This document shows, one piece after another, positions 2,284-63,498 of a stretch of 64,000 bases of DNA. The stretch is from Chiloscyllium plagiosum (taxonomy: Eukaryota): the NCBI RefSeq assembly GCF_004010195.1, contig NC_057731.1, positions 17,884,720-17,948,719 on the forward strand. The letters are read 5' to 3'. The notes beneath the pieces are model-generated. The model did no database searches and had not been told where the DNA came from. It worked only from the letters and a program-made list of their open reading frames with translations. The translations under genes were made by a program, and so were the position numbers. Each line of letters starts with the position of its first letter. The first letter of the stretch is position 1.

Positions 2284-3091
2284 TGACGTGAAGGTGCTGG
2301 TGTTAGGCTGGGGTGGACAAAGATAAAAATGACACAACATCAGGTTATAGTCCAACAGGTTTATTTGTAAGTACTAGTTTTTAGAGCGCTGCTCCTTCAT
2401 CAGGTAGCTAGTAGAGCAGGATCATAGGACTTAGAATTTATAGTAAAAGATCAAAGTGTCATAGAACTGATGCAATGTATTGAACAAACGTAGTCTGCTG
2501 TTAAGTATTTAATCAATTAGAATGGGTTGCAGGTTTCCATTCATTTATATGTAAATCCCAGAACATCTTTCAAGTCACATTCCCGAGATAACTTAAGGTT
2601 TCAAAAAAAAGGTGACATCTCAGCTCAGATAATACATTAAAGGTGTGAGATTAGAGTCTGTCTGTATTCCAACCTTGAGTCAGACTGGTTCTATTTCTAA
2701 GGTAGGAGTTTATAAACTGCCACATGGAGTGACTGCCTTCACATTGTGTGCTTTGTGAACAAAATAGAAGTACCTGCAAGTACAAATCTGCAAATGCAAA
2801 TTCACCTCCTAGACTTATATGTGTGGGTGTGGGAGAGAGGGAGCATGTGTGTGTGTGTGTGTGTGTATGTGTGTGTATGCGCGCGCGTGTGTGAGAGAGA
2901 GTGTCTGAGCTGAGATGTCTTTTTTTTTAAAACCTTAAGTTATCTTGGGAATGTGACTTGAAAGAAGTTCTGGGATTTCTGTGTCCTATACTCCTGCACC
3001 ATTTGCTACCTGACAAAGCAGCAGCGCTCCGAAAGCTAGTGCTTCCAAATAAGCCTGTTGGACTATAAACTGGTGTTGTGTGATTTTTAAC
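2284..3091. mobile_element. Non-coding fold-back Penelope-derived element with HHR-like motifs in both arms and an internal (TG)n/(GA)n tract
   Basis: 12-bp TSD tttcaattatca at 2272-2283 and 3092-3103. Outer inverted arms at ~2320-2430 and ~2980-3091; inner inverted pair at ~2556-2630 and ~2904-2977. Confidence 0.8.
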
Positions 3092-3518
3092 TTTCAATTA
3101 TCAGGGTTGCCTAGTTTCACCTCCACTACACCATCCTCTCTGCCCTGTCTCAGTTCATCTGCTGCATCTAGCTTTGACTATTCCAGTGCTTTTGGCTCCT
3201 TCCCTCCTTAAACTTGATCTCCTCCAAAATGTTACTTCCTGTGTCCTAACTCACCCCAAATCCTGATCATCTACCATTTCAATTCTTGTTCACCAACATT
3301 CTTTACCCCCTAACAATGCCTAGATTTTAAAACCCCCATCTATGGCTTCAAACCTCTTGGTCACATCAATCCCTGTAACCTCCTCCAGCCTCATAACTTT
3401 CTGAGGCATCTGTCCACCTCAACTTATGGCCTTTTGCACATTCTCAAATTCTCTCCCTAAAATTCTCCTACTTTATTCTCTGTTCCCTTTTAAAATGTTA
3501 CTTAAAAATTATCCCTTT

Positions 3519-5958
3519 GAAGGTCCCAGAGGACTGTGCTTCATACAGGCCCATTTCACTCATATATGGACTTTAAAATCCTCTCTAAGATTCTTGCGTT
3601 AAGGCTGAAAACTGTGTTACCTTCTACTGTTAAAGAGGACCAGATGGGCTTCATAAAGGGCCACAGATCCTCCAATAACATTAGGAGATTGCTTAACATA
3701 ATTCAAGCATGTCAATAACAGTCAATACAGAGATTGGTGATTTCTCTATTTGATGCCACATCAAATTTGACCGAGTTGAGTGGCCGTACCTTTTCTATAC
3801 TCTGGAGCGGTTTGGCTTGGGCGAAGTCTTTGTAAGATGGGTAAAGGTTCTCTACAGTGACCCTCTCGCTGCGGTCATCACCAGTGGGGTACGATGAAGC
3901 AATTTTAACAGTTTTAGGAGCAGCCAGCAGGGCTGTCCCCCTTTGCCGTTGCTTTTTACATTGGTGATTGAACCATTGGCAGAGGCTAATTGTAGGATCC
4001 TAATATATCCGCTCCAGAATTGGGGTCAAAATTACATAAGATTTTGTTGTACGTGGACGATGTCCTAATTTTTTTGTCAAATCCAGCAGTTTCCATGCCC
4101 AGCCTGAAAATGCATTTGGCGCATTTTCGGGATACAAGATTAATCTTGCAAAGTCAGAAGCTATGCCTATGGATGGTCTTACGAAGGAGCTAGGTTTTGA
4201 GGGCGAGCATCGATTCCCATTTTGGTGGTCACGGGGGTTTTGTGTATTTGGGCATATTCATTACTCCATTTCTTGATCTGTTGTTCAAAGCTAATTTTGT
4301 TAAATTATTTGACAAAATCAAACAAGATCTTCAAAGATGGGAGGCACTTCCAGTCTCGTGATTGGGTCAGATAGTGCTTATTAAGATGAATATTCTCTCC
4401 CGTTTGTTCTACGCTAGGTAGATGCTCCCCCGATTTCAATAAGCAAATATTCAGGAGACTGAAAGGCTCTTATTTGGTATCGTAAGCAGCCCCTCATTAA
4501 ATTAGCTAAACCGCAATTGCCTCACAGATTGGGGGGGAGTGGATGTCCTGGACATTAAAAGCTACTAACTAAGCTCACTTTTATCCTACGTGAATGATTG
4601 GGCCTGTGGGGGGCGTCTTTCAATATGGTTAGGTATTGATACCTCTGAGGCGGGGTCGCCCCTTACTAGCTTGCTGTTTTTGGACAAAATGAGGACAGTC
4701 AGAGAATATTGCCATAACCCAATAGTTATCAATACTGTTAAGGCATTTACGGCAATTCGGCAGAGGGATCGCAATAGTGGTAAAACATATTCTCTTTCGC
4801 CTATAGTTGGTATGCCGGGTTTTCAACCGGGGATGATAGATTCAGGATTCGAACATTGGACAGCTAGGGGTGTGTCTTGCATGGGCGATTTATTTGAGGG
4901 AGACACAATGATGTCCTTTTGATCAGTTAGCGTGGAAATATGAGCTATCTAACAGGGGCCTCTTCTGTTTTTCTCAAGTTAGGGATTTTATTCAAAAACA
5001 AATTACACTTTTGACTGATCCCTACACATCTGACGTAGACAGGAGGGTGCTCAGTGCTAAGAGTACACTTTCTGTCAGCACGTTTTTCATCAATTGGGGG
5101 TGCCCCCTCAGATGAGTTCGATCGACTCCGCAGGGTGTGGGAGAGAGAGCTAGGTGTTGAAGTTTCCTCAGAGGCGTGGGAAGATATTTGGGAAAATGCC
5201 AGAAAGATATCAATTTGCCATAGGACCCATGCTTTACAGTTGAAGATTCTCCACAGTGTCCACATGGCTCTGGACCGTTTGTCAAAATTTAAACCAGGGG
5301 TATCTTCAGCATGTCCCAAGTGCAAGGCCTGTATGGGCACTCTTACCCATTGTCTCTGGTCCTATGATCCTTCTTACTTCACACTGTCCAGTGTGTTCCC
5401 TGCAGATGCATTTAAGAAAACACTTTTCAACATCCTCACTTTCTACACAAGAAAGAATATCTTGCTAGGTTGGTTATCCGACAAACCTCCCGGGCTTGGG
5501 TTGGCAGAAGATTGTTATGGAGCATATCCCCTTGGATTTTTCACAAGTATGGTACACCATAAAACTGACACTATTTCTAAGATATGGCAGCCCTTTTTGG
5601 AATACCTGCACACAGATTTATCTGCCACGCTAATAAGGGCTTTTAAATAACCGTAACAATTGTATTTTAGAGTCCAATATCCAGGGAGGAGGGACTGCAA
5701 ATGTATCAGTGTCTTATTTGGCTGAATTGAGTTATTACTATCTATCAGTTTTGTTGTTGGTTATTATTTAGTTAGTTAAATAGTTAGTTTTGTTTTCTTA
5801 TATATTTTTCTATATATATTTATACATTCGTACAAGAGGGTGGATTGGGTTTTTCCTTTTCTTGTGTTCTTTCTTTGTATTGTTTTGAATTGTATTGTTT
5901 TGTATTTGTTGTAATATTTAAAAAATATATTTTTTCAATAGAAATATATTTAAAAAAT
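3519..5958 (+). mobile_element. 5'-truncated L1/Tx1-clade LINE, frameshifted ORF2 (RT and C-terminal Cys-rich region)
   Basis: DFKILSKILALRLKTVLP...DQMGFIKG, QGCP, YVDD (~4049-4061), CPKC...HCLW; A-rich tail. 14-bp TSD aaaattatcccttt at 3505-3518 and 5959-5972, at a TT/AAAA site. Confidence 0.9.
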
Positions 5959-15300: not shown

Positions 15301-15851
15301 GAAGGGGAAAGAGGGCCTGAGAGCAGATTTTAGGAAATTAAGAAAAACTAAAATGCAGGACCTAAAGAGTAGTAATCTCAGGACAATTCCCAGCGCTATG
15401 GTATTAGTGAATTTTGGGACAGGATGATTGATCAATTGATTTCATGTAGGAGCGTTCAAATAGGAGGAAAGGCAATGGATTTCTGTGGCAGTGGGACTGA
15501 TATTTGGACAGACGGGCTACACTTCAACAGGACTGGGACTAGAATCCTCTCAGGGAGATTTGCTACTGTTGTTTGAGAATGTCTGAACGAAGCTATCAGG
15601 ATAATGGGAACCTGAGGGGTAGCTCAAATTGGTAGTAAAACTGATAACAAGGAGTCGAAAAATGGCATTCAGGTGAAATGAAGACAAGTGTCAGTAATGC
15701 TTAGTATGTGGAATAATGGCTAAAGGAAAAATGGTTAAAGGCATGCTACCTGAATGCACAACAAGGTAAATGATTTAAAGGCACAAATAGATTTAAATAG
15801 GTCTCATCTAATTGCTATTATGGAAAAATGGCTGAGGTGTGACCAAAAGAT

Positions 15852-16187: not shown

Positions 16188-16231
16188 AAGCCTAGGAATT
16201 GAATATTCAAGGATACTTGGCATTTTGGAAG

Positions 16232-21220: not shown

Positions 21221-21698
21221 ACTTCACCTGACGAAGGAGCAGCACTCTGAAAGTTTGTGATTTTTAATAAACCGGATGTGAAGATGCCAGTGTTGGACTG
21301 AGGTGGACAAATTTAAAAATCACCCAACACCAGGTTATATCCAACAAGTTTATTTGGAAATACTAGCTTTTGAAGCATTGCTCCTTCATTAGGTAGTTGT
21401 GGAGGAGGATCATAAGACACAGAATTTGTAGCAAAAGATCATAGTGTCATGTATGCAATATATGATACAATCATTAATGAACCGAAACCCACAACCCATT
21501 CTAAAAGATGAAAGACTTAACAGCAACCAGGTTTGTTTAATATATCATTTCAGTTGCATGACACTGAAATCTTTTGCTGTAAATTCTGTCTCCTATGATC
21601 TTGCTCCACAGCTACCTGATGAAGGAGCAGCGTTCTGAAAGCTGGTACTTTCAACTGAACCTGTTGCACTCTTACCTGGTGTTGTGTGACTTCTGACT
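21221..21698. mobile_element. Fold-back Penelope-derived element (same family as 2284-3091) plus an adjacent HHR fragment
   Basis: Inverted arms at ~21315-21450 and ~21557-21698. HHR-like cores at 21224-21260 (+), 21361-21396 (-) and 21613-21647 (+). Confidence 0.75.
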
Positions 21699-21706
21699 CT
21701 GTTGCT

Positions 21707-25574: not shown

Positions 25575-25835
25575 CAGGTCAGACATGCTGAGGCTGGAAG
25601 GACACAGCAAGCCAGGCAGCATCAGGAGGTAGAGAAGTCCACATTTCAGGTGTACCCCTTCTTCAGGACTGGGGGTGGGTGTGGGGGTAACTGTAGATAA
25701 ATGGGTGGTAGAGGCAGGGTGGTGAAGTGGAGATAGGTGAAGCCAGGTAGAGGGTACGATCTGGTTGGTCAATAGGAGGAATGAATCTGATCAGTGGCAG
25801 GGAGAAGTGGAAGTGATGGGGAGGGGCTGGGAATG
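25575..25835 (-). mobile_element. PLE 3' fragment with degenerate HHR (25636-25670)
   Basis: Minus strand reads agtc-CTGAAGA-aggggtacacct-GAAA-tgtg-gact, with the pyrimidine-rich 3' UTR seen in the other PLE copies. Confidence 0.7.
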
Positions 25836-26042: not shown

Positions 26043-26290
26043 AAAAAAAAATCACACAACATCAGCTTATAGTCCAACAGGTTTATTTGGAAGTACTAGC
26101 TTTTGGAGCGTTGCTCCTTCATCAGATGATTGATGATTAGGTGATGATGATGATCAGGTTGACAACCACCTGATGAAGGAGCAGCTCTCCGAAAGCTAGT
26201 GCTTCCAAATAAACCTGTTGGACTATAACGTGGTGTTGTGTGATTTTTACCTTTGTCCACCCCAGTCCAACACCAGCTCCTCCAAATCAT
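26043..26290. mobile_element. Minimal fold-back HHR element (~80-nt arms, ~45-nt (gat)-rich spacer)
   Basis: 26045-26124 is the inverted repeat of 26169-26248. Confidence 0.8.
26167..26201 (+). ncRNA. Minimal type-I hammerhead ribozyme motif, core intact
   Basis: cac-CUGAUGA-a-ggag(cagct)ctcc-GAAA-GCUA^-gtg. Helix I is cac/gtg and a palindromic AGCU replaces helix III. Confidence 0.72.
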
Positions 26291-26657
26291 GAATACAGAA
26301 GTCAGTGCACATTTGACTGTGATCATCAGCAAACCCTGTACTGCTACTAGGATGAAGCAGCAATTACTATCCCTGAAGTGCTACACACCTACTTTGTGTT
26401 AATAGGTTTCTGAAGCATTGTTTCTGATTTTGGGGAGATGTTTGTTGGAAGGACAAAGTTAATTCTGGTGAGTTGTGCTTTTAATGAGATGTGAATGATT
26501 ACAGCTAGACCTCTCCTCACCTACTAGTGACATACTTGACCCAGTACCTGAAGGGGGAGAAGAAAATACTCTCTTAAATTAGCGAGTTTTGAGAAGATTT
26601 GTAGCTCAGGTTGAGGTTTTGGATGTAGGCTTGCTCGCTGAGCTGAAAATTTCATTT

Positions 26658-26697
26658 CCAGACGTTTCGTTACCTTATTAGGTAACATCTTCAGTGG
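26658..26697 (-). ncRNA. Minimal hammerhead ribozyme in PLE pLTR, core intact
   Basis: cca-CUGAAGA-u-gttacct(aata)aggtaac-GAAAC-GUC^-tgg, with a 7-bp helix II. Confidence 0.8.
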
Positions 26698-27298
26698 GCC
26701 TCACACGAAGCAATGCTGAAAATTCCTGCTGTCTATTTATATGTTTGGGTTTCTTTGGGTTGGTGATGTCATTTCCTGTGTTGATGTTATTTCCTGTGGT
26801 GAAGTCACTTCCTGTTCCTTTTCTCAGTGAGTGGTAGATGGCGTCTAACTCGATGTGTTTGTTGATAGAGTTCCGGTTGGAATGCCATGCTTCTATGTCT
26901 TTGTTTGGCTTGTCCTAGGATGGATGTGTTGTCCCTGTCAAAGTGGTGTCCTTCCTCATGTGTATGTGAGGATACTAGTGAGAGAGGGTCATGTCTTTTT
27001 GTGGCTAGTTGATGTTCATGTATCCTGGTGGCTAGTTTTCTGCCTGTTTGTCCAATGTAATGTTTGTTACAGTCCTTGCAGAGTATTTTGTAAATGACGT
27101 TAGTTTTGCTCATTGTCTGTATAGGGTCTTTCAAGTTCATTAGCTGCTGTTTTAGTGTGTTGGTGGGTTTGTGGGCTACCATGATGCCAAGGGGTCTGAC
27201 TAGTCTGGCAGACATTTCCGAGATGTCTTTGATGTAGGGGAGAGTCGCTAGGGTTTCTGGATGTGTTTTGTCTGCTTGTTTGGGTTTGTTGCTGAGGC

Positions 27299-27338
27299 CC
27301 ACTGAAGATGTTACCTAGCAAGGTAACGAAACATCTGG
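27299..27338 (+). ncRNA. Minimal hammerhead ribozyme in second pLTR (GUC changed to AUC)
   Basis: cca-CUGAAGA-u-gttacct(agca)aggtaac-GAAAC-AUC-tgg. Confidence 0.7.
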
Positions 27339-30300
27339 AAATGAACCTTTCAGCTCAGCGAGCAAACCTACATCCAAAACCTCAACCTGAGCCACAAATC
27401 TTCTCAAAACTCACTAAGATCTATGGGCGCAATACACTAAAACTGGCCTGAAAATGGGAAATGAATGCCATCCGACAGAGTGCCACCTGCAAACAGCTGT
27501 ACCTCCTGCACGAATGCCTAAGGAAACAGGTACAACCTAAATGTCTTCAATACAAACCTCCCCTTCATACCCCACTAGCCATAAGAATAGCAGAGCAAAA
27601 CGGCCACAGAATGCTTAGAGAAATGATTAATGATGCCCACAACAGACTCCATAAATACAACCGGGAAATTTTGCATCAAAAATCTTTACTCAGTCATGCA
27701 ACAGACCATGAATGGACAGACACAGTACAACAAGCCGTAGATATTAGATAGCGACAAATACAGAAAATGAAATTAGACCTGCAGAAAAAACTAGACAAAC
27801 TTACACAAAGTAACAACATTGACAACACAGACGCATGGATAAAAAACGTATCTGATCGACCCCTAACAGACACTGAAAAAGCCGTCTTACTGAGAGGATT
27901 AAATTACAACTGACAGGATGTGGACAAGAAAGATTTCTTAGCAGCAATAGAAACAACATTAAAAGACAACCAACTCGCAGAAGAAACCCAACAATCCATC
28001 AAACAGGTAGTTGCACCAACATTAAGCAGAAACAAGGAAGGAAACACACTCAATGCACAAGAAAGGAAAGCACTGGAAAGACTAAAAAGAGATAAAAACA
28101 CTGTTATCCTACCTGTAGACAAAGGACGCTTGACAGTCATTCTAAACCAACGAGACTACATTGAAAAAGGAAACGCACTACTTACAGATATCAACACTTA
28201 CCAACAAGTGGCGATAGACCCGACCCCACAACTAGACAACCGAATCACAGCCCGACTCAAAAAACTTCAGAAATCTGGACAAATAAATAAGACCATACAG
28301 ATCTAACACACCACACTTCTACGGATTACCCAAAATTCACAAACCAGGAGCCCCCCCTCAGGCCCATCAGTCTTGCTACCTGGAACACCAACTTACAGAG
28401 TGGCCAAGGAGCTACACCAAAGACTAAAACACTTAGTAGAAGGCTCACGCCACTCCATCCACTCCATCCAAGAATTCCTGAAGACCAAAGACACTAAGAT
28501 AGAAGAGGATGAAATAATGGTCTCCTTTGATGTAACAGCCCTGTATACTTAAATCAACAGTAACATGGCCAGGGAAACACTGACTACACTATTAGAAGAC
28601 CCAAAGACACATATACAAAACACCACTAACTTCACCAGCAAGGAAAATATCATCAAGCTAGTTGACCTATGCCTTACCACCCACTTCACCTACAACAAAA
28701 ATAACCTACAGACAAACCAATTGGACACCCATGGGATCTCTGATATCAGGATTCTTAGCAGAGGCAATAATGCAGAGACTTGAGCAAACAGCTCTGCTAA
28801 CCATCCAACCCAAACCCTGGGTCCGCTATGTGGATGACACCTTTGTCATCACTAAATGAAACAAGTTAGAGGAAATCTTCAAGACCATCAATAACATGCT
28901 TACTGGCATAAAATTCACTAAAGAGGAGGAAAACAACAACAAACTGCCATTCCTAGCACAATAGAGCGAACAGCCAATGGGGAACTTCAAACCAGCGTCT
29001 ACAGAAAAACAACACATACGGACCAAATATTGAACTCCAGAAACAATCATCCCAACACCCACAAATGAAGCTGCATCAGAACATTATTTCAACAAGCCAA
29101 CACATACTGCAGCACAGAGGAACTACACAGAGCAGAGGAAAATCATCTGATACCATGTATGCAAAAGGAATGGGTACCCAATGAACACATTCCGCTGATT
29201 TCTCAGCAACAAGCCCAACCAAGCAGAGTCAGATGTTTTACTACTTGCCTGATTAAGCTCACCTGCCTGCCATTATTGTCACCTTCTACGAGACTGGAAA
29301 ATCCCTCCTGTACTTCCTGGGGTCAGCCCTGAGGTGTTGGAGCTAAAGACACAGAGGAAGAACAATTTGAGGAGGCGGGAACGCCAGCACTTGATTAGTA
29401 TTCACAGCCACCAGCTTAGATACTGGCACTACACATACCTTGGTGGATAACAATGAGGCACAATTAACATAAAATACTGGGCAGTGCAGTGTTAGATGGA
29501 AAGGCTATGTGCGTGCCAGCCTTGCCAGAGTGTGGGTTTGCAGATTGATTAAGCTGTAGAGGAATTGGGTGAATAGTATTCTTAGTGAGTCAGTCATCTT
29601 GTTGGCAGTCCTTGTCCTCCTCTTCCATATTGACTGTTTTTGCTCTCTGTGCTCCATCTCATTCCAAGGTTACAGTCCAGGAGGGCACAGCAACTAATGT
29701 CGCTATGACCAAGAGCAAGTGGAATGCTCAAGGTTATTTCTCAGGCACCCAACACCTTCCCAATGTCCAGAGTTAATTTACACAGAATTTATTGATTTTT
29801 CCAAATTCCTCTGAAAGCCTAGTATATACACAAATACAGCAAGAGCCAGTAGTCAATAACAGTGACTTTCTGCATCAAATGATTAAGGTCTGGAATGCAC
29901 TGCCTGAAACCGATGGAGGCAGATTCAGCTGAAGCATTCAAATAGGAATGAGACCATCATCTGAAAAGGAAAAATGAGCAGGAGGGAAAGGGGAGGGAAT
30001 GGGAAAGGGGAGGGAGTGGGAATGTGCTTAGAGAGCTGTTCAGACCTGATGGGTTGAATGGCTGCTATCTATGCAGGGCTGATACCGGGACTTTGTGATT
30101 CTACAACTTGCAAGTTGGATGATACTCCCTTTGTATAGCACTCCTGGAGTATGTTCATGCATCTGGTCACATGTTCAGCTGTGTCTCTACGGAGTGTGTT
30201 AACCAGAGTAGCAAGCTGGAAAATAGTAGATTGGGTGCCAAGTTGCCACTAGTCTCTGACTGGCTCCGCAGTCTGCCTACTCTGTCTGTGTTAGTGTTGT

Positions 30301-30509: not shown

Positions 30510-31846
30510 GAAACAAAAACAGAAATTGCTGGAAAAACTCAGCAGGTCTGGCAGCACCTGTGCAAAGAAAGCACAGTTAATGTTTTGAGTCCAGTGACTC
30601 TTCTTCAGAACTGATTAGAGCTAGGAGAAAGAAGGTTGGTATGAATGCTGAAGGTGAGGCGGTGGGGAGAGGCAAGAACTAAACATTAAGTGGAGATGGG
30701 GCCCAGACAGAGAGAAAAAGTTGGACAGACAAATGAATGGATAAAGGTCAGCCTGAGGAAATCAATAGCTGACAATGGGTTGTTTCTGGTAGCAGTCCAT
30801 ATGATGACAAGGCCTGGTTTGTGAGGGTTGAGGTAAAGGAATAGGAGAAGGTGCTCAGGCTCTAACAAACATATTATACAAACTTAATAAACTGATTATT
30901 GAGTCCAGAAGGCTGCAGGATTCCCAAATGGAAAATGAGATGCTGTTCTTGCAGCTTGTACTGAGCCTCGCTGGAGCATTGCAGCAAAACGTAAAACAGA
31001 GACATTGGCCAGAGAACACGGTGATGTGTTAAAAAGGCAGGCCACTGGAGGCAGAGGGTCATTTTTGTGGAAAGAACATGGGTTTTCTGCAAAGTGGCCA
31101 CTCAGTCTGTGCTTCATCTCCCCAGTGTAGTGGAGACCACATTGTGAGCAGTGAATACAGTAGACTAGATTGAGTGAAATGCAGATAAAATGCTTTCACC
31201 TGGAAATTGTGTTTGGGACCTTGGATACTGAGGAGGGAGGAAGTCAATGGGCAGGTGTTACACCTTCTGCGATTGGGTAGGTGCCGTGGAACTGTGTGGA
31301 GGTGTTGAGAGTGAAGGAGGAGTGGACCAAGGTGTTTTAGAGGGAAACAGTACTTGCAGAAGGGGGAGGGGAACATGTCTGTGTGGCATCCTGCTGGAGG
31401 TGGCGGAAGTGGCGGCTTATGATCCTCTGGATGTTGATGCTGATGGGATGGTAGGTGAGGATGAGGGAGACCTTATTGCAGGGAAGTAGAGAGGGGGCGA
31501 GGGCCAAAATGCGAGACATGGGTCAGACTCGGCCCTATCAACCATGGTGTTCGGGAAGAAGAAGAAGGTGGACATTTTGGATGCTCCTTTGTTGAAGTTG
31601 ACATCATTGGTACAGATGTAATGAAGATGGAGGAACTGGGAGAATGGAATAGAGTCTTCGCAGGAAGGAGGGTGTGAGGATGTATAGTCCAGATAACTGT
31701 GGGAGTCAATCGGTTTGTAGTGGGTATTGGTGGCCAGCCTATCCCCAGAAATGGAAACAGAGATGTCGAGGAAGGGAAGGGAGAAGTCAGAGATGGACCA
31801 GGTGAAGGTGAGAGCGGGTTGGAAATTGGAAGCTAAATTGATAAAC
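30510..31846 (-). mobile_element. 5'-truncated Neptune-like PLE (RT C-terminus/thumb, Cys linker, GIY-YIG, 3' end with degenerate HHR at 30575-30612)
   Basis: FLDISVSISGDRLATNTHYKPIDSHSYLDYTSSHP; frameshifted EN; agtt-CTGAAGA-a-gagtc(actg)gactc-aAAA-catt-aact. Confidence 0.85.
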
Positions 31847-31910
31847 AATTATTATAAGATACAGTTAAAGCTTCATCTTTAAGGCTATTGTAATTTCTTA
31901 TCCATAGTTT

Positions 31911-32200: not shown

Positions 32201-32424
32201 ATTCTTTTGAGTTGGTTCTTTTGTGTTATTAAATATATCTTACTTGCACGGTAGTTGAAGACTATTTATCTCTCTAATAGAAAGCAGAGCAGAAATGGGG
32301 TGGACATTCAGGAATTGCCAGGGTTTTCTCAGAGAAGGGCCTGGAACCAGTTCTAGCACGCAAATTGTTAACATTAAAATAATGGCACATCTTGTTTCTG
32401 TTTGCTCTTGTTTGCTTGCTCATT

Positions 32425-33285
32425 ATTTCCCTCCCCAGGGATATATTTCCCTCCCCACCCCTCTCCGCCTTCCGCAAAGATTGTTCCCTCCGTGACTACC
32501 TGGTCAGGTCCACGCCCCCCTACGACCCACCCTCCCATCCTGGCACTTTCCCCTGCCACCGCAGGAACTGTAAAACCTGTGCCCACACCTCCTCACTCAC
32601 CTCTATCCAAGGCCCCAAAGGAGCCTTCCACATCCATCAAACTTTTACCTGCACATCCACTAATATCATCTATTGTATCCGTTGCTCCCGATGCGGTCTC
32701 CTCTACATTGGGGAGACTGGACGCCTCCTAGCAGAGCGCTTTAGGGAACATCTCAGAGACACCCGCACCAATCAACCAAATCGCCCAGTGGCCCAACATT
32801 TCAACTCCCCCTCCCACTCTGCCGAGGATATGGAGGTGCTGGGCCTCCTCCACCGCCGCTCCCTCACCACCAGACGCCTAGAGGAAGAACGCCTCATCTT
32901 CCGCCTCGGAACACTTCAACCCCAGGGCATCAATGTGGATTTCAACAGTTTCCTCATTTCCCCTTCCCCCACCTCATCCTGGTTTCTAACCTCCAGCAAC
33001 TCGACTTGTCCGGACTTGTCCGACTTGCCGAGGTCCTTTTCCACCTATCCACTCCACCCTCTCTTCCCTGACCTATCACCTTCATCTCCTTCCCCACTGA
33101 CCTATTGTACTCTATGCTACTTTCTCCCCACCCCCACCCTCCTCTAGCTTATCTCTCCATGCTTCAGGCTCTCTGCCTTTAAGAGCTTTTATTCCTGATG
33201 AAGGGCTTTTGCCCGAAACGTCGATTTTGCCTGTCCTCGGATGCTGCCTGAATTGCTGTGCTCTTCCAGCACCACTAATCCAGAA
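32425..33285 (+). mobile_element. Young 5'-truncated Neptune-like PLE with uninterrupted Cys-linker and GIY-YIG frame
   Basis: Perfect 14-bp TSD tttgcttgctcatt at 32411-32424 and 33286-33299. TFPCHRRNCKTC...NIIYCIRCSRCGLLYIGETGRLLAERFREH...EEERLIFRLGTLQPQGIN. CpG-rich. Confidence 0.93.
33191..33226 (+). ncRNA. Minimal hammerhead ribozyme at PLE 3' end, core intact
   Basis: attc-CUGAUGA-a-gggc(tttt)gccc-GAAAC-GUC^-gatt; predicted cleavage after 33222. Confidence 0.78.
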
Positions 33286-34805
33286 TTTGCTTGCTCATTG
33301 CCAGTAATGCTCGGGAGACTGAGCTGTAAGCCTAGCACCATTGAGCCATCAAAGGTAAGGCAGACAGAAAGAAGAAGAATACAGGGAAATAGAACTTACC
33401 TTTCTTTGATGGCACCTGTTAACATCTGTGAAGCTGAAGGGCTCTGACTACTGTTTTCTCAAAGAAGCTTCTAGTTCTGGTTTCAGTCTAATCCAAGGGC
33501 TAGGCCCTGCCTGCAATGGCAATATATTAAACTAAAGTTAATGGTTTATACTCATAGGCAGTTATAATCTAGGGCAGGAAAAGCACGCTTTTCATGTACT
33601 GGGCTGGATTGGTCCCCAGATAAGAGCAAGAGAATCTGCTGGAGTGTGTCCTAACTCTCTTGTGTAAGTCACTGAAATCTTCAGCTCAAGGTCCAAGCAC
33701 TAAAGCACACAACACTAATTTTCATACAGGGTACAGCACACTCAAAGAGACAGTGGAAGATCTGGACAGTGTGTTAGTGTTAATGCTTCCAAGTAACTTG
33801 ACTGCACCAAATTAGGCAAATATCATAATGTCTCAGGCCGAAATGAGAATAACAAAATGTTAAGCCAACATAAAAATCATTCTCTTGCTGCATTTTAAGG
33901 CTGCTCAATAATAAAGGAACAGTAGGAGGTTTCAAAGCCATAGCATTGAGTTTATCACTTCCAATTACAGGCTTAGCTGACATAATTGCATAATACAGTG
34001 GAACTGTACACACCACATTATAGTCTGGCATTTGTCCAACTTCCCTTTTTTGTTGTTGCAGCTGACTAGGTGGGAGAACTAGGAGACAGGCAGCCTGATC
34101 CATAACGTCTTACTTCCATGTTGCTTCTGCATTTCTACCCAAGTAGAAGGTGTGCTTTTGTTTTTACTTGATGCAAGAATGGTTGAAGGACATCACATAT
34201 GCAAAAGCCTGAAGTTACTGATTATCAATTGTTCAATGTATTACTGTCTTGTTTTTAATTAATCTTATTATAAAACTGGAGATGAATGCTGGCTAAATTG
34301 GCACTGCCATTTAAGAAGCCTTCTGTCATGTGGAAAATCGTTTACACAATCTGAAATATGTTCAGCAATTTTTTGTTTGGAGAGTTGCTGGTAACATTTT
34401 CTGAAATCAACACACTTGAAAAACGAGTGAACTGACATCTTCATACAAGTGGCAGCCTGTCGCCGTGCTAAAAATATATAACAAGCAATTGCTATCAGCT
34501 TTATTCTACCTCACAGCATAAACCATCTGGTGCCATGCATCAGAAGGCAGCTACACCGTACTTTAAATGTAATGGAAGAATTGAAGGATGAGCCTGAAAA
34601 ACAAATTGGAGGATGCACCTCTAAAAAAAGAGTAGTTCCCATCAAAATCATCCCAAAAATTAACAAAATATTGTCTTTAGGCTGAATATGGGACCCAATT
34701 CATAAACATGTTACCAGCTGGTAAAATCATACATACATTTAATGGAAATATTTAAATTCCAAATTCAAACCATGTTTACAATAATCTTGCCACTACTAAC
34801 CTAAT

Positions 34806-35020
34806 GTTGACAAAGTCAGAAGTCACTTGACACCAGGTTATAGTCCAATAGGTTTATTTGAAATCACAAACTTTTGGAGGGCTGCTCCAATCAGGTGAAA
34901 GTACCTCCACATTTCATTTCAGCTCTGATGAAGAGTCACTTGGATCAAAATGTTAGTTTGATTTCTCTCCATGGATTCTGCCTGACCCGTTATGATCGCC
35001 AGCATTTTCTGTTTTCAGGA
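34806..35020. mobile_element. Back-to-back PLE 3' ends of two families, each with a decayed HHR
   Basis: Fold-back-family arm on - (34806-34900); agct-CTGATGA-a-gagtc...aAAA-tgtt-agtt on + (34921-34958). Confidence 0.6.
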
Positions 35021-36725: not shown

Positions 36726-36729
36726 TTGG

Positions 36730-41265: not shown

Positions 41266-41376
41266 GTGCAGAAGATGATTCAATCAAATTTGCCATTACC
41301 TGCACCGGTGGTAACTATTTCCCAGTATGCATGTCAGAGGAGATCAACCCTCAATAATAGAAACAAAATATTTACG
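41266..41376 (+). CDS. DNTT: TdT coding exon (exon 3 equivalent), BRCT-catalytic linker
   Basis: Polypyrimidine tract plus tttag|GTG; donor ACG|gtaatg; 111 nt, phase 0/0. VQKMIQSNLPLPAPVVTISQYACQRRSTLNNRNKIFT contains the TdT/Pol mu motif ISQYACQRR.TLNN.N..FT. Too short to be in the ORF track. Confidence 0.95.
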
Positions 41377-42288: not shown

Positions 42289-42320
42289 ACACTATTTAAA
42301 CCGACCATAACCTACTTGCA

Positions 42321-42544
42321 CTGAAAACAACAAATGCTGGAGATCACAGCAGATCAGGCAGCATCCATGGACAGACAGTAAATTAATATTTTGAGTCTGC
42401 TAATGTTTCGCTTTGAGATGACTCTTAGCAGACTCAAAATGTTAGCTTGCTCTCTCTCCATGGATGCTATCTGACCCACTGTGATCTCTGGCATCTGTTG
42501 CTTTCAGTACAGATTCGAGCATCTTCAGTAATTTGCTCCTAAAC
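42321..42544. mobile_element. Hairpin insertion of a PLE 3' end
   Basis: 12-bp TSD aacctacttgca at 42309-42320 and 42545-42556; arms at ~42321-42403 and ~42426-42508. Confidence 0.8.
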
Positions 42545-48485: not shown

Positions 48486-50840
48486 AGAGTCATAGAGTAA
48501 TACAGCATGGAAACAGTCTCTTCATTCCAACCAGTTCATGCCAAACATAATACCAAACTAAACTAGTCCCACCTGTCTGCTCATGCCCCTTATCCCTCCA
48601 AACCTTTCCTCTTCGTGTATCTATCCAAATGTCTTTTAAATGTTGTAATTGTGCCAACATACACCACTTCCTCTGAAAGTTCATTCCACAAGGGAACCAC
48701 CCTGTGTACAACATTTGCTTCTCATGATTTTTTAAAATCTCTCTCTTCTCATCTTAAAAATGTGCCCCCTAGTCTTGAGATTCCCCCTCCTAGGGAAAAG
48801 ACAAATGCCATTCACTCTATCTATATCTTTCCTTATTTTATAACCTTCTATCAGGCCGCTTCTCAACCACTTATGCTGCAGTGAAAAACCCCAGCCTATC
48901 TAGTCTTTCTTTATAACGCAAACCTTCCATACCTGGCAACATCCTGTTAAATTTCTTCAGAACCCTCTCCAACTTAATAATATCCTTCCTATAACTGGGC
49001 AACCAGAACTTGTCACAGTACTCTATAAGAGGCCTCACCAATGTGTTGTACAGCCTCAACATGTCTTTCCAACTCCTATACTCAAAGAACTGAGCAATGA
49101 AGGCAAGCATGCCATATGCCTTTTTAACCACCCTTTCTACATGTGATGCAAATTTCAAAGAATTATGTACTTGTACTTCTACAGCACTACCCAAGGAGAA
49201 AGTGGGGGCTGCAGATGCTGGAGATCACATTGAAAAAGTGTGGCGCTAGAAAAGCACAGTGGGACAGGCAGTATCTGAGGAGGAGGAGAGTCGACGTTTT
49301 GGGGGTATGGGGGGGGGCTTGAAGTTATAATCAAGGACAGAATGACTAAGCAGTTTGGGCATGGGAATTGAACAACATGAAATTATAAATTGCTGGCCAT
49401 ATTTGATGAATACTAGTTTTCTTTGTTAGGTTAGTAACAATGTTTGGCAGGGGACTTCCAATGGAGATCAGGAGTGTGATGCTGGAAAGCACAGTCAGGC
49501 AGGCAGCATCCGAGGAGCAGAAGAGTCGATGTTTTGAGCATAAACTCTTCATCAGGAATGGGGGAAGGGGCAAGAGAGCTGAGAGATAAATCAGAAGTGG
49601 GGGTGAGGGTGGGAGTGGGGTTGAGCTGGGGGGAAGGTAACTAGGAAGGTGATAGGTAGATGATGGTGGGGGTTGATGGTGATAGGTTGGAGCAGAGGGT
49701 GGAGTGAATAGGGGGGAAATAGGATGGACAGGTAGGACAGTTCAAGAGACTGATGCCGTGTTAGAAGGTTGGCACTGGTATTAGATGGAGGGAGGGGAGA
49801 TTAAATTGGTGAAATTGACATTGATTCTGTGTGGTTGGAGGGACGTCCTGAACAAACCCACTGTCCTGTGGCCGAACACATCACTCTCCCCACCCCCACA
49901 ATGCCAAGGACATGCAATTCCTAAGCGTCCTCCACCACCAAATCCCCGTCACCCGGTCCCTAGAGGAGTAACACCTCATCTTCCACCTTGGGACCCTCCA
50001 ACCACACAGAATCAATGTCAAATTCACCAGTTTCCTCTTGAACTGTCCTACCTGTCCAGCTTCCTTCCCACCTATCCACTCCACCCTCTCCTCTGACATA
50101 TCACCCCCCCCACCTTCATCTACCTATCGCCTTCCTAGCTACCTTCCCCCCAGCCCCACCACTCTCCCATTTATCTCTCAGCCACCTTGCCTTCCCCCTC
50201 CAACAATCCCCACATTCCTGATGAAGGGCTTATGTCCAAAACATCGACACTTCTGCTCCTCGGATGCTGCCTGACCTGCTCTACTTTTCCAGTACCACAC
50301 TTCTGAATACTGCCCAAGGCCCTACCATTAATTGTATAAGCTCTACCCTTGTTTGTTGCAATGTTTTGCATTTATCCAGATTGAACTCCATCTGCTATTT
50401 TTCAGTCCATTGACCCATTTGATCAAGATCCCTTTGTAATCTTAGACAATAAATTTTGGTGTCATCCACAACCTTACTAACCATGCCATCTATATTCTCA
50501 TTAAAATCATGTATATAAATGACAAACAAAAGAGGACCCAGAACTGATCCCTGTGGTACATCACTGGCTACAGGCCTCCAGTCCCAAAAGTAATACTCCA
50601 CCATCACTCTCTGTCTTCCGCTGTTAAGCCAAGTATCCAATTGGCATGTTCACCCTGAATCCCAAAGGCTTTACAAAGATCCAAATAAACAATGTCTACT
50701 GCTCTGCCAACATTAATCTTTTGATAACTTCCTCATAAGACTCAATCAAGCCTGTGAAACATGCTATTCCTCGCACAAAACTCTAAACGTCCATAAATCT
50801 TATCTTTTCTAATCACCTCAAATAATTTACCTACAACCTT
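48486..50840 (-). mobile_element. CR1 fragment interrupted by a PLE composite
   Basis: VPQGSVLGPLLFVIYI (50395-50640) and LVRPLIEYCDKFW (48871-49194); (ctatga) tail at ~48486. Confidence 0.85.
49197..50308. mobile_element. Composite fold-back PLE insertion with HHR-like motifs (49523-49559 -, 50214-50250 +)
   Basis: TSD act(a/g)cccaagg at 49186-49196 and 50309-50319. Minus-strand 3' ends at 49197-49300 and 49462-49842; plus-strand EN-3' end at ~49845-50302. Confidence 0.8.
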
Positions 50841-54103: not shown

Positions 54104-54430
<327 letters not shown>

Positions 54431-55477: not shown

Positions 55478-55593
55478 TGAAGGAGCATCGCTCCGAAAGC
55501 TAGTGTGCTTCCAATTAAACCTGTTGGACTATAACCTGGTGTTGTGTGATTTTTAACTTTGTACACCCCAGTCCAAAACCGGCATCTCCAAAT
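55478..55593 (+). mobile_element. Single arm of the fold-back HHR family, truncated within the HHR core
   Basis: tgaaggagcatcgctccgaaagctagtg...ctataacctggtgttgtgtgattttt...catctccaaat; homologous to 26173-26288. Confidence 0.85.
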
Positions 55594-55617
55594 AATGTAA
55601 TTCATGCTTTCATGCAG

Positions 55618-55689
55618 GAAATACTGGAAGATGGAGTTAGCTCGAAGGTTGAGAATTTGCAATGTGATGAGAAGTACAAAGCAAGAAAG
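55618..55689 (+). CDS. DNTT: TdT coding exon (exon 5 equivalent)
   Basis: catgcag|GAA ... AAG|gtaagc; 72 nt. EILEDGVSSKVENLQCDEKYKARK resembles TdT EIIEDGESSEV..VLNDERY.SFK. Confidence 0.93.
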
Positions 55690-56160: not shown

Positions 56161-56267
56161 GGATGGAATCGTCTAAGGGTCTGAGCATTGTAGTCTATGG
56201 CAAGGTGTGCTGCAGAATACGATCAGAATTCTGGTAAGGATCATCTCGACATTAGGAGCATCTCACT

Positions 56268-57140
56268 CATAGAGGTGTATAGCATGGAAACAGACTCTTT
56301 GGCCCAACTCATCCGTGCCGACCTAAATTAATCTAGTCCAATTTGCCAGGTCTTGGCCCATATTCCTCTAAACCCTTCCTTCTCACTTCCGCATCCAAAT
56401 GCCTTTTAAATGTTGTAATTGTGCCAGCCTCCACCACTTCCTCTGGCAGCTCATTTTATACGCACACCACCTTTTACATGAAAGTTTTGCCCCCTTGGTC
56501 CCTTTTAAATATTTCCCCTCTCACCTTAAATCTATGCCCTCTAGTTCTGGACTCCTCCACCCCAGAGAAAAGATCTTGTCTATTCACCCTATCTGTGCCC
56601 CTCATGATTTTATAAACCTCTATAAGGTGATCTCTCAGCCTCCCACGCTTAGGACAAAATAACCCCAGCCCATTCAGCCTCTCCCTGTAGCTAAAAACCT
56701 CCAACCGCGGAAATATCCTTGTAAATGTTTTCTGAACCCTTTCAAGCTTCACAAAATCCTTCCGATAGGAGGGAGACCAGAATTGCAAGCAATATTCAAA
56801 AAGTGACCTAACTAACGTCCTGTACAGCTGCAACATAACCTCCCAACTCATATACTTAATACTCTGACCAATAGAGGAAACATTACCAAATGCCTTTTTT
56901 ACTTCCTATCTACCTGTGACTCCACTTTCAAGGAAATATCAGCCTGTACTCCAAGGTCTGTTTGTTCAGCAACACTCCCCAGGACCTTACCATTAAGTGT
57001 ACAAGTCCTGCGCTGATTTGCCTTTGTAAAATGCAGCACCTTACATTTATCTAAATTAAACTTCATCCAACATTCCTCAGTCCATTGGCCCATCTAATCA
57101 AGGTCCCATTATACTCTGAGGTAACCTTTCTCGCTGTCCT
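56268..57140 (-). mobile_element. CR1 3' fragment
   Basis: SWEVMLQLYRTLVRSLFEYCLQFWSP...SRTRGHRFKVRG; MKFNLDKCKVLHF. Confidence 0.9.
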
Positions 57141-59019: not shown

Positions 59020-61328
59020 ATTGAATTGAATTGAATTTATTGTCACGTGTACTGAGGCTCAGTGAAAAGCTTTATCTTACGAGCAATATAGGCAGATCAC
59101 ATAGTTAAATAGCATAGATAAATAAATAATAGGTAAACAGCGGCAAAAACAAAAACACAAGTACAGGCAAATGCTAAGAGTTTGTGAGTCCATTCAGTAT
59201 TTTAACAACAGTAGGGTAGAAACTATTTTGAAATTGGCTGGTGCATGTGTTCAAGCTTCTGTACCTTCTCCCCAATGATGGAGGTTGTCGGAAAACATTA
59301 CCAGGATGGGATGGATCTTTGAGAATACTGGCGGCCTTTCCTTGACAGCGGGCGTGGTAGATGGATTCTATAGATGGGAGGTTGGCCTTTGTGATTGCCC
59401 GGGTTGAGTTCACCACTCTCTGTAACCATCTCCGATCTTGAATGGTACAGTTGCCATACCAGGTAATGATACATCCAGACAGAATGCTCTCAATGGCACA
59501 CCTATAAAAGTTAGCCAGGGTATTCACCATCATGCCAAATTTTCTCAGCTGTCTAATGAAGAAGAGATGTTGGGCCTTTGTAACCAGTGCATCTACATGA
59601 AGAGTCCAAGAAAGCTTGTATTGATGTCCACTCCCAGGAGCTTGACACTCTCCACTTGTTCCACCTCTGTGCTGTTAATGTGTAGGGGGGCATAAGTAAC
59701 ATCCCACCGAAAGTCAATAATGAGTTCCTTGGTTTTGCCGGCATTGAGAGCTAGGTTATTCTCAGTGCACCATTTTTTCAGGTCTTCTACCACGTGTCTG
59801 TAGTCTGTTCCATCGCCATCTGAGATTCGACCGACTATGGTGATGTCATCAGTGAACTTGTAAATGGCATTAGTCTGGTATTTGGCGACACAGTCATGGG
59901 TGTGCAGTGAGTACAGTAGGGGACTGAGTATGCACCACTGGTGGGCTCCAGTGTTGAGCGTTAGTGAGGATGAAATATAGCTGCAAGATGATTACATTTA
60001 CAAGATGATTAGGGGTTTAGATAAGGTCGACAGTGAGAATCTTTTTCCACGTATGGAGTCAGCTATTACAAGGGGGCATAGCTTTAAATTAAGGGGTGGT
60101 AGGTATAGGACAGATGTTAGGGGTAGATTCTTTACTCAGCGAGTCGTGAGTTCATGGAATGCCCTGCCAGTAGCAGTGGTGGACTCTCCCTCATTATGGG
60201 CATTTAAGCGGGCATTGGATAGGCATATGGAGGATAGTGGCGTCGTATAGGTTAGGTGGGCTTGGATCGGCGCAACATCTGGCGGCCTTTCCTTGACAGC
60301 GGGCGTGGTAGATGGATTCTATAGATGGGAGGTTGGCCTTTGTGATTGCCCGGATTGAGTTCACCACTCTCTGTAACCATCTCCGATCTTGAATGGTACA
60401 GTTGCCATACCCAGGTAATGATACGTCCAGACAGAATGCTCTCAATGGCACACCTATAAAGGTTAGCCAGGGTATTCACCATCATGCCAAATTTTCTCAG
60501 CTGTCTGATGAAGAAGAGATGTTGGTCCTTTGTAACCAGTGCATCTACATGAAGAGTCCAAGAAAGCTTGTAATGATGTCCACTCCCAGGAGCTTGACAC
60601 TCTCCACTTGTTCCACCTCTGTGCTGTTAATGTGTAGGGGGGCATAAGTAACATCCCACCGAAAGTCAATAAAGAGTTCCTTGGTTTTGCCGGCATTGAG
60701 AGCTAGGTTATTCTCAGTGCACCATTTTTTCAGGTCTTCTACCACCCGTCTGTAGTCTGTTCCAAGGCCATCTGAGATTCGACCGACTATGGTGATGTCA
60801 TCAGTGAACTTGTAAATGGCATTAGTCTGGTATTTGGCGACACAGTCATGGGTGTGCAGTGAGTACAGTAGGGGACTGAGTATGCACCACTGGTGGGCTC
60901 CAGTATTGAGCATTAGTGAGGATGAAATATTGTCCCCAGTCTTCACTGATTGTGGTCTGTGGGTCAGGAAACTGAGGATCCAGTTGCAGAGAGTGTGACT
61001 TAGTCCGGGATCACTAAGTTTAGTTATCAGTCTCGAGGGGATAATAGTGTTGAAGGCTGAACTATAGTCAATGAGTAGGATTCTTACGTAGCTGTTCTTG
61101 GTGTCAAGATGTTCTAGGGAGGAGTTAAGGGCAAGTGATATGGCATCTGACATGGACCTGTTGGTCCGATAGGCAAATTGGAGTGGGTCAAGAGTAGTGG
61201 AGAGACTGGAGTTGATTAATGCCACGACCGGCCTTTCAAAGCACTTCATGACCCCTGAAGTTCGGGCCGTTGGGCAGTAGTCATTGAGACATGCTGCATG
61301 AGCCTTCTTAGGCAAAGGGATGGTGTTG
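59020..61328 (-). mobile_element. 5'-truncated Rex1/Babar-clade LINE with internal 651-bp duplication
   Basis: PKK...CLNDY.P.A.TS.VMKCFER, LDPLQFAYR.NRS..DAI, YVRILLIDYSSAFNTIIP, KFTDDITIVG; (TTCAA)n tail at 59020-59038. Confidence 0.9.
59979..60278 (+). mobile_element. CR1 3' fragment between the duplicated Rex1 segments
   Basis: MIRGLDKVDSENLFP...TRGHSFKLRGGRYRTDVRGRFFTQRVVSSWNALP; lacks the terminal tail. Confidence 0.85.
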
Positions 61329-62369
61329 GAAGATTAAGTTACATGGAATCCATAGTGAGTTGGCAAATTGTATACAAAATTAGCTTGATCATAGAAGACA
61401 GAGGGTAGTTGTGGAGAGGTGTTTTTCTGACTGGAGGTGTGTGACCAGTGGTGTTTCACAAGGAGCAGTGCTGGAATATCTGTAATATTCACCTCTGTAC
61501 AACTATCCATCTTAGCCATGCCTCTCATAACTTTATACATTTCTATCAGGTCGTCCCTCAGCCTCCAATGCTGTTTCGTAAACAATCCAGTTTTGTCCAA
61601 CCTCTCCTGATAGCTAATGCATTCCAACCCAGGCAACATCCTAGTTTTGCACCCGTTCCTAAGCCTCAGGATTCAGTTGAACAGAAAAATTGTAATATTT
61701 ACAAATGATTCGGATAAAAATATAGGTGGCCTGATTAGTAAGTTTACAGATGGTACAAAAATTGGTGGAGTTATGGATAGTGAGGAAGGTTATCAACAGG
61801 TACATCAGAATATAGATTAGTTGGAAAGTTGGGTGGAGATGAAGTTTAATCTGGGCAAGTGTGAAATGATGCATTTTGGGAGGTCAAATGCAAGAGAAAA
61901 ATGTACAGTAAATAGTAGGACCCTTGGGCACATTGATATACAGAAGGATCTTGGGGTGCAAGTCCAAAGCTCCCTGAAAGTAGCAACACCATTGGATAAG
62001 GTGGTGAAGAAAGTGTCCGGCATGTTTGCCTTCATTGGTCAGGACTTTGAATAGAGAAGTTGGCAAGTCACACTGCAGCTATATAAAATTTACTTTAGGC
62101 CACATTTGGAATATTGTGTACAGTTCTGATCACCACACTGTTGGAGGATGTGGAGGCTTTGTAAAGGGTGCAAAACCAGGAGGTTGCCTGGGATGGAATG
62201 CATTAGCTATCAGAAGAGGTTGGACAAAACTGGATTGTTTACAGTACAGCATCGGAGGCTGAGGGACGACCTGATAGAAATGTATAAAATTATGAGAGGC
62301 ATGGCTAAGGTGGATAGTTGAAGATTTTTTTCCCAGGGTGAAAATTTAAAATGCTAGGGGGCAGAGGAG

Positions 62370-62478
62370 CCCCATTTATTTCTCCACCCCCGAGGCTCTC
62401 AGCCTCATTCCTGATGAAGGGCTTTTTCCTGCACCTCAGATGCTGTCTGACCTGCTGTGCTTTTCTAGCACCCCACTG
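62370..62478 (+). mobile_element. PLE 3' fragment with internally deleted HHR
   Basis: cattcctgatgaagggcttt joined directly to tcctgcacctcagatgctg; the GAAACGUC half is missing. Confidence 0.65.

Positions 62479-63330: not shown

Positions 63331-63498
<168 letters not shown>

What the first reader, a model, noticed from the sequence alone, without database searches (positions are those of the whole stretch)
2284..62478. DNTT introns carry about 15 minimal hammerhead ribozyme motifs from several Penelope-related families, with covarying stems
Seen: one architecture recurs, [helix I]-CUGA(U/A/C)GA-N-[helix II]-GAAA-NNUH-[helix I'], in unrelated sequence contexts. Helix I covaries (cac/gtg 26167; tac/gta 21613; tcac/gtga 21224; cca/tgg 26658 and 27299; agtc/gact 25636; agtt/aact 30575; attc/gatt 33191). 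Helix II also covaries (ggag/ctcc, gggc/gccc, gagtc/gactc, gttacct/aggtaac). Helix III is replaced by a palindrome (ACGU or AGCU). Known: PLE pseudo-LTRs encode such minimal HHRs, proposed to cleave as dimers. Inference: these families and this density in a shark locus may be uncatalogued.
Basis: partly seen in the sequence, partly recalled or inferred. Interest (0 to 1): 0.7.

Follow-up and report, generated by a model that had tools for sequence, protein, structure and literature searches.

The report
Penelope retroelement ends carrying minimal hammerheads
The motifs in the DNTT introns are real but mostly decayed hammerhead (self-cutting RNA) motifs at the ends of Penelope-like jumping genes, a known pairing that is just as dense elsewhere in this genome, and the way many copies begin suggests they were likely copied from capped, uncut RNA that starts just before the ribozyme.

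Summary
Confirmed: 15 minimal type-I hammerhead motifs lie in DNTT introns 2 and 3 (8 sense, 7 antisense). Only 5 keep the whole catalytic core, and 3 also keep the palindrome. They are pseudo-LTR pieces of Penelope-like elements (PLEs). Decayed GIY-YIG or RT frames adjoin three families in the window; the fourth is linked elsewhere in G000. The density is not special: 13 here against 10.6 expected per 64 kb from 774 kb of sampled genome (P=0.27), or about 590,000 genome-wide by extrapolation. Helices covary between families, but single copies decay at CpG roughly neutrally. The pairing was described in 2014, and this scan has found it before in this genome and others.

Extras tested here: short copies start 4-8 nt before the core, with an excess of G not present in the element (2255 G against 1038 A/T), likely a copied cap. 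One insertion in the window holds both end ribozymes uncut, in a twin-priming layout. Family A has a poly(A) signal 10 nt after the cut site that is used in RNA reads. Cleavage itself was not tested.

The parts
904..1078 (+). DNTT exon (BRCT part; exon 2 by recalled numbering)
2284..3091 (.). Family A inverted double insertion: motif 2372-2406 (-, G12 lost) and 3007-3041 (+, G8 lost), flanked by a 12-bp direct repeat (2272-2283 and 3092-3103), likely a target-site duplication
21224..21260 (+). Family A-type motif, core intact, palindrome decayed (AGUU), tail cut short
21290..21702 (.). Family A inverted pair: 21361-21395 (-, two core changes) and 21613-21647 (+, NUG cut site)
25593..25670 (-). 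Family E motif (25636-25670; NUG, palindrome decayed) with the shared Neptune-type tail
26047..26132 (-). Family A stub, motif 26094-26128, G12 lost
26162..26293 (+). Family A stub starting at the predicted RNA start with a G before it (26161); intact motif 26167-26201, predicted cut after 26198; AATAAA and a GU-rich tract follow
26579..27296 (-). Family C (Penelope/Poseidon-type) 3' part: RT end and GIY-YIG frame (26805-27314), then the pseudo-LTR with intact motif 26658-26697
   Evidence: (PF01541 E 2.5e-4, just under the curated cut-off)
27293..29226 (+). Family C 5' part, inverted against the 3' part: starts 5-9 nt before the core; motif 27299-27338 (core intact, palindrome ACAU); ATG at 27308 inside the core, in frame with the DKG motif; decayed RT (YVDD) follows
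30516..31848 (-). Family D decayed element: RT-end and linker frames (31059-31848), then motif 30575-30612 (G12 lost)
   Evidence: frames read by eye as PLE-like, no Pfam hit
32383..33292 (+). Family B (Neptune-type) 3' part: CX4CX2C linker and GIY-YIG frame, then intact motif 33191-33226, predicted cut after 33222
   Evidence: (PF01541 E 6.5e-5)
34806..34897 (-). Family A remnant with a 2-nt deletion in the core
34921..35015 (+). Family F motif 34921-34958 (G12 lost) with tail
41266..41376 (+). DNTT exon (ISQYACQRR; motif recalled)
42317..42511 (.). Family F inverted pair, 3' halves only
49476..50301 (.). Family B inverted pair: 49524-49559 (-) and 50214-50249 (+), both with G12 lost
54230..54400 (+). 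DNTT exon candidate (171 nt, open, AG/GT ends)
   Evidence: assigned by recalled likeness to TdT
55478..55599 (+). Family A stub cut inside the core, ending 18 nt before the next exon
55618..55689 (+). DNTT exon candidate (72 nt)
   Evidence: assigned by recalled likeness to TdT
62407..62477 (+). Family B remnant with the GAAA and cut site deleted
63331..63453 (+). DNTT exon (polymerase part)

Best explanation
The motifs are minimal hammerheads in the pseudo-LTRs of several Penelope-like retrotransposon families, left in DNTT introns as decaying insertions that are likely without function for DNTT, and they were likely copied from capped, uncut element RNA that begins a few bases before the ribozyme. 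Shown: the link to PLE frames, a density equal to the genome background, covariation between families, CpG decay in copies, and 5' ends piling up just before helix I with a G excess. Inferred: a promoter in the pseudo-LTR (TATA-like box about 30 nt upstream) starts a capped RNA at helix I; reverse transcription starts about 55-95 nt after the cut site, runs to the cap and copies it as an extra G; a second priming event from the other target end gives the head-to-head pairs. From papers: such motifs cut poorly, as dimers or with help from the element's protein, so cleavage would matter only in active source elements.
For: PLE link. GIY-YIG frames lie directly upstream of 33195 and 26694. RT and GIY-YIG share one frame in family B locus L135 (RVT_1 E 0.02, GIY-YIG E 1e-4). 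Family A has a linker/GIY-YIG frame within 1.5 kb in 4 of 30 loci, 2 on the same strand upstream.

Background. 128 motifs in 774,098 sampled bases; window 13 against 10.6 expected, P=0.27.

Covariation with no pairing filter. 7 of 8 pair columns beat at least 999 of 1000 shuffles.

Decay. At the CG that joins helix II to G12 the sample has CG 54, harmless TG 17 and core-killing CA 16 of 97.

5' ends. 39 of 123 B-type copies start at -10..-1 and 6 of 123 at +26..+30, around the cut site. For family A, 20 of 53 start at -12..-1.

Extra G. Before ACAAYCAC the genome has G 2255, A/T 1038 and C (the element's own base) 14012. One base further up, G is 17 of the first 100 non-C hits. 20 of 20 G copies checked lack upstream element sequence. 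Family B: G 58, A 30, T 12 of the first 100 of 8721.

Window element 26579-29226 keeps both end ribozymes whole, with a 25-bp duplicated break point.

Papers. Frangieh 2024 (PMC11167929): internal RT start, uncut RNA as the main substrate, protein-assisted cleavage, ORF start at stem II.
Against: No cleavage, cap or transcription start was measured. Many G copies (about 14 of 20) adjoin an inverted copy, so the G could come partly from junction microhomology. In family A the exact-pattern counts favour harmless TG over CA (1103 against 780), a departure from strict neutrality. 5' ends are spread, with 23 of 123 at 0..+9, 23 running far upstream and 20 at +31..+50, the last partly from D/F families that lacked a reference. 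Shuffle controls ignore relatedness, slid controls for helix II stay high (91-111 of 128 in some columns), and helix I pair 3 is paired in only 59 of 128. Drosophila Penelope has an internal, TATA-less promoter (PMC2377424 passages). Clade names rest on motifs, not on a tree.
Confidence: 0.85

Rival explanations
1. The intronic ribozymes have been co-opted to cut or regulate DNTT pre-mRNA.
For: Four sense copies keep an intact core (21228, 26170, 27302, 33195). Domesticated intronic hammerheads are described in amniotes (PMC6155905 passages).
Against: Density equals background, orientation is 8 sense to 7 antisense, and 10 of 15 have core damage. No two sense copies share an intact core and the same palindrome, so no dimer partner is in the pre-mRNA. 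26170 and 27302 each adjoin an inverted copy that would pair with them.
Confidence: 0.04
2. The elements are copied from ribozyme-cut, re-ligated RNA circles, so copies span the cut site because the junction was re-formed.
For: Proposed by Cervera and De la Pena 2014. Cores, helices and palindromes are kept across families. A few copies start at the cut site (3 at +28 and 2 at +29 of 123; window copy 22031 too).
Against: A circle has no 5' end, so it does not explain the pile-up before helix I with an extra G. In vitro PAc uses uncut RNA. It may still hold for some long copies.
Confidence: 0.12
3. The short copies are a separate non-autonomous element class (SINE-, MITE- or retrozyme-like) with terminal inverted repeats.
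For: Many 90-130 nt stubs, inverted pairs and one 12-bp duplication. Retrozymes are reported in a chondrichthyan.
Against: Stub sequence matches pseudo-LTRs attached to PLE frames. Spacers between arms vary and are PLE sequence. There are no tandem hammerhead arrays in the window. Inverted copies and 30-40 nt tails are standard for PLEs.
Confidence: 0.07
4. The motifs are chance matches.
For: The descriptor is short, and only 2 of 5 folded motifs reach z below -2.
Against: 0 perfect hits in 12 shuffles; 0 perfect hits in reversed 774 kb against 24 real; thousands of exact genome copies with control 0.
Confidence: 0.01

Closest known systems
Minimal hammerheads (min-HHR) of metazoan PLE pseudo-LTRs (Cervera and De la Pena 2014, PMC4209133; parts 1-2 of 4 read, supplements not seen)
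   Same: Type-I core without helix III, extra base between positions 9 and 10.1, G10.1-C11.1 pair, palindromic 15.2-16.2, several families per genome, mostly single truncated copies, and opposite-strand pairs 100-700 bp apart.
   Different: Helix II is 4-5 bp in five families here (7 bp in C). The extrapolated number (about 110,000 strict, about 590,000 with one core change) exceeds their 4,000 (coelacanth) and 9,000 (Xenopus), though the descriptors differ. Sharks are not named in the parts read.
Poseidon of Anolis carolinensis, PAc (Frangieh et al. 2024, PMC11167929; parts 1-2 of 4 read)
   Same: Family C has its ATG at the start of stem II, with the cut about 25 nt after it. Copies have two 3' end points about 35-40 nt apart (tail) and span the uncut ribozyme.
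   Different: A pile-up of 5' ends with an extra G is not described in the parts read. The other families here carry a Neptune-type linker, and their ORF starts were not located.
Complex PLE insertions (Craig et al. 2021, PMC8557442; passages read)
   Same: 5' truncation, adjacent inverted copy, 30-40 bp tail, CX2-5CxxC linker in Neptune-type elements.
   Different: That paper centres on Naiad/Chlamys elements, which lack canonical hammerheads and have an N-terminal endonuclease; here the endonuclease is C-terminal.
Non-LTR retrozymes (Li et al. 2026 bioRxiv 10.64898/2026.07.22.740005; part 1 of 5 and passages read)
   Same: PLE-derived type-I hammerheads; present in one chondrichthyan.
   Different: Retrozymes are tandem arrays depleted from introns; these are single or inverted copies inside introns.
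Untemplated 5' G of L1/SVA insertions (PMC3287187; passages read)
   Same: [quoted passage not shown]
   Different: Described for L1 machinery; no PLE report turned up or 74 (listings only).

Membership tests
Minimal type-I hammerhead (min-HHR) | Core CUGANGA ... GAAA ... NUH | tested here: met
   Intact in 5 of 15 window copies and in young family copies; others differ mostly by CpG-type changes
Minimal type-I hammerhead (min-HHR) | Helices I and II with compensatory changes between families | tested here: met
   I1 CG/UA/AU, I2 UA/AU/CG, II3 GC/AU/UA, II4 CG/GC/UA/AU; helix I pair 3 is weak (59 of 128); relatedness not controlled
Minimal type-I hammerhead (min-HHR) | Extra base before 10.1, G10.1-C11.1 pair, palindrome in place of helix III | tested here: met
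   II1 GC 82 and GU 29 of 128; ACGU or AGCU in 68 of 128, with most others CpG-decayed (ACAU, AUGU)
Minimal type-I hammerhead (min-HHR) | Self-cleavage as a dimer or with protein help | not testable with these tools
   Needs a bench assay; no pile of read ends was listed (poly(A) library, weak test)
Endonuclease-positive Penelope-like element | One frame with RT followed by GIY-YIG | tested here: met
   L135 (family B): RVT_1 E 0.02 and GIY-YIG E 1e-4 in one frame; family C decayed DKG-RT-GIY-YIG in the window
Endonuclease-positive Penelope-like element | Pseudo-LTR with a hammerhead at both ends; inverted truncated copies; tail | tested here: met
   Family C 26579-29226 (94% alike over 125 nt); family B L147, L148 across assembly gaps; family A 3' ends near +85 and +122
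Neptune versus Penelope/Poseidon clade | CX2-5CxxC linker present (Neptune/Nematis) or absent; RT phylogeny | tested here: inconclusive
   Linker present in B and near A, absent in C; no tree built
Non-LTR retrozyme | Tandem units, each with a hammerhead | tested here: not met
   No such array in the window; one 118-nt tandem pair seen in L143
Rfam hammerhead families | Match to an Rfam covariance model | tested here: not met
   No hammerhead family at E<=10
Domesticated intronic hammerhead | Conservation at the orthologous site across species | not tested
   No relative genomes are held; decay and background density argue against

The most novel reading that the evidence does not exclude
In these PLEs the hammerhead is the first ~35 nt of a capped transcript and works as an off switch, not as a release step. 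Copies are made from uncut RNA right up to the cap. Protein-assisted cutting would remove the cap (and in family C the start codon at 27308) and, at the 3' repeat of family A, the poly(A) tail that starts about 30 nt after the cut. Hundreds of thousands of genomic stubs would then be a map of PLE transcription starts, and family A stubs a genome-wide source of intronic poly(A) sites.
Probability: 0.35. Interest if true: 0.6.

Novelty: new member of a known kind. Interest (0 to 1): 0.3.

Why it matters
As stated, the finding is ordinary: PLE minimal hammerheads are known, and DNTT is not special. What remains useful: (1) the copy number here may be one to two orders above published vertebrate counts (extrapolated, with a different descriptor); (2) the 5' ends give genomic evidence on an open question, whether PLEs need the cut to transpose, and they agree with the in vitro PAc result that uncut RNA is copied; (3) family A brings a working poly(A) signal into introns, a more likely route to an effect on host genes than self-cleavage.

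Tried and rejected
Rfam scan: no hammerhead. The best hit, MIR9471 (46.5 bits against a cut-off of 150), is the inverted family A pair at 26094-26201 folding as a long hairpin.

Tandem arrays: none with the motif.

Full-length family B copies: the 8 longest 'open frames' fetched were assembly gaps of N.

Run search: no RNA holder of the window stretch was listed, which is no evidence either way. Run X20 laid nothing. Locus-specific RNA reads for the DNTT copies were not obtained, so intronic polyadenylation or cleavage in DNTT is open.

Folding: the predicted minimum-energy fold shows helices I and II for 26658, 21224 and 30575, but not for 26167 or 33191. Cofolded homodimers did not give the dimeric hammerhead fold; an open core is not expected to win on energy, so I gave this no weight.

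A peak of copies at the cut site was sought and is small at best. The two family A copies scored at +29 (L047) belong to a variant and start slightly earlier.

The slid control of -1 for helix I pair 1 had no letters. No target duplication was found for four other pairs in a narrow search. Lunse et al. (PMC5785218) is not held; it was seen only as a reference in PMC6765202. No supplements of any paper were read; those of Cervera 2014 and Li 2026 may list shark families.
Full report
Observation. A descriptor [helix I]-CUGANGA-N-[helix II]-GAAA-NN-UH-[helix I'] finds 4 perfect and 11 near-perfect hits in the window. Twelve Markov shuffles gave 0 perfect and 3 near-perfect hits in total. Five have an intact core and three also the palindrome (26170+, 26694-, 33195+). 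The host gene is DNTT on the + strand (exon candidates). Thirteen of the 15 lie in the 40-kb intron 1079-41265 and two in the next. Eight are sense and seven antisense. Rfam has no matching model.

What they belong to. The motifs fall into families by helix II and tail. Family B (33195) follows a frame with a CX4CX2C linker and GIY-YIG. That protein has 139,547 first-look candidates in G000 and 150 scored matches at 89-100% identity, and in L135 an RT part and GIY-YIG share one frame. Family D (30608-) follows PLE-like frames at 31059-31848, read by eye with no Pfam hit. Families E and F share the B/D tail. Family A has a linker/GIY-YIG frame within 1.5 kb in 4 of 30 loci, 2 of them upstream on the same strand. 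Family C is a nearly whole decayed element in the window: ATG at 27308 inside the core, DKG, RT with YVDD, and a GIY-YIG frame without the linker. By the motifs in PMC8557442 (passages), B and A are Neptune-type and C is Penelope/Poseidon-type; I built no tree.

Is DNTT special? No. Eighty 10-kb stretches from 38 large contigs (774,098 bases without N) hold 24 perfect and 47 near-perfect descriptor hits, against 0 and 2 in the reversed sequence. The pairing-free catalogue gives 128, or 10.6 per 64 kb against 13 in the window (P=0.27). By the pairing descriptor the window is somewhat higher (4 and 11 against 2.0 and 3.9 per 64 kb), which I read as local variation. Extrapolated, G000 holds about 110,000 strict and about 590,000 near-perfect motifs; the small contigs were not sampled. 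Cervera and De la Pena report about 4,000 in coelacanth and 9,000 in Xenopus with their descriptor.

Covariation. In the 128 copies chosen without pairing, Watson-Crick counts beat at least 999 of 1000 shuffles in 7 of 8 columns; the near-invariant G10.1-C11.1 column did not (24 of 1000). The shuffles ignore relatedness, so the real evidence is the set of pair types across about six families. Against: helix I pair 3 is paired in only 59 of 128 (U.U in young family B), and slid controls stay high for parts of helix II. Within families the change is decay: at the CG across C11.1-G12, harmless TG (17) and core-killing CA (16) are equal in the sample. Exact family A counts are CG 1936, TG 1103 and CA 780, a 1.4-fold tilt that could reflect source elements tolerating G.U, or strand-biased decay. 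Structure was thus likely kept in source elements, not in copies.

How the copies were made. 5' ends pile up just before helix I: 39 of 123 B-type copies at -10..-1 against 6 at +26..+30, and 20 of 53 family A copies at -12..-1. A TATAAA lies about 30 nt before the family A start, and TTTAT-like words lie at the same distance in B and E (by eye). The base before the family A start is G in 2255 copies and A/T in 1038, where the element has C (14,012). One base further up, G is 17 of the first 100 non-C hits (odds ratio 10.6). All 20 G copies fetched lack upstream element sequence, though about 14 adjoin an inverted copy. Family B shows G 58, A 30, T 12 in the first 100 of 8721. For L1 and SVA such a G is attributed to copying the cap. 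I saw the pile-up, but the cap reading came from earlier scan notes and was then tested here. The window's family C insertion has a twin-priming layout (term recalled from L1 work): the 3' part on the minus strand (27296-26579) joins head-to-head to the 5' part (27293-29226), with a 25-bp duplicated break point and a 4-nt junction overlap. Both end ribozymes are whole, so the template was likely uncut at both. This fits Frangieh 2024: RT starts inside the RNA, core mutants still insert, cleavage needs the protein, and the ORF starts at stem II.

RNA. On L133:700-1750, which holds one family A and one family B end, poly(A) run X19 (about 2% read) laid 4255 reads, mostly from other copies (90-95% alike). 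Poly(A) tails start 27 and 30 nt after the family A cut site (313 and 398 reads), behind an AATAAA/ATTAAA that begins 10 nt after the cut. Depth on the sense strand is about 4-5 times the antisense on both sides of the cut, and no pile of ends was listed. So family A carries a used poly(A) signal, and polyadenylated RNA likely holds the uncut ribozyme. Copy 26170 keeps AATAAA and the GU tract in sense within DNTT; whether it is used there is open.

Comparison and verdict. All sequence features that define min-HHRs are met, and cleavage is untested. Opposite-strand pairs, tails and inverted copies are described. Searches for a shark report and for a PLE cap-G or twin-priming report found none in the listings; Dfam, Repbase and supplements were not seen. 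This scan holds 702 notes with the same key words in at least 36 genomes, including this one, and two with the poly(A) signal. Verdict: a real feature, a new member of a known kind, not DNTT-specific; interest 0.3.

Noticed in passing
window 55478-55599: A family A stub ends 18 nt before the acceptor of the DNTT exon at 55618, which has a weak pyrimidine tract; the stub may now supply the branch point.
   Followed up: no
window 26094-26201: The inverted family A pair scores as Rfam MIR9471 (E 2.8e-7, far below the cut-off); such head-to-head pairs form long hairpins that could feed small-RNA or editing pathways.
   Followed up: no
window 59174-61333 (-): Decayed LINE RT frames (RVT_1 E 5e-22) with a 951-952 nt tandem duplication, 92-98% alike.
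   Followed up: no
window 61500-62320: Inverted repeat with 168-nt arms, 92% complementary, 485 nt apart; not a hammerhead family.
   Followed up: no
window 15848-16079, 41883-42290, 48490-49085, 56267-56865: Several copies of a CR1-like LINE 3' end (recalled likeness; no family call made).
   Followed up: no
window 33191-33226; L131-L150: The young, very abundant family B subfamily has a fixed U.U mismatch in helix I, leaving 2+1 pairs, while sister subfamilies have U-A or U.G there.
   Followed up: partly
L143:2620-2860: Two family B stubs in direct tandem, 118 nt apart, both with the same core change (G5 to A).
   Followed up: no
window 1079-41265: One DNTT intron is about 40 kb long and filled with repeats.
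   Followed up: no
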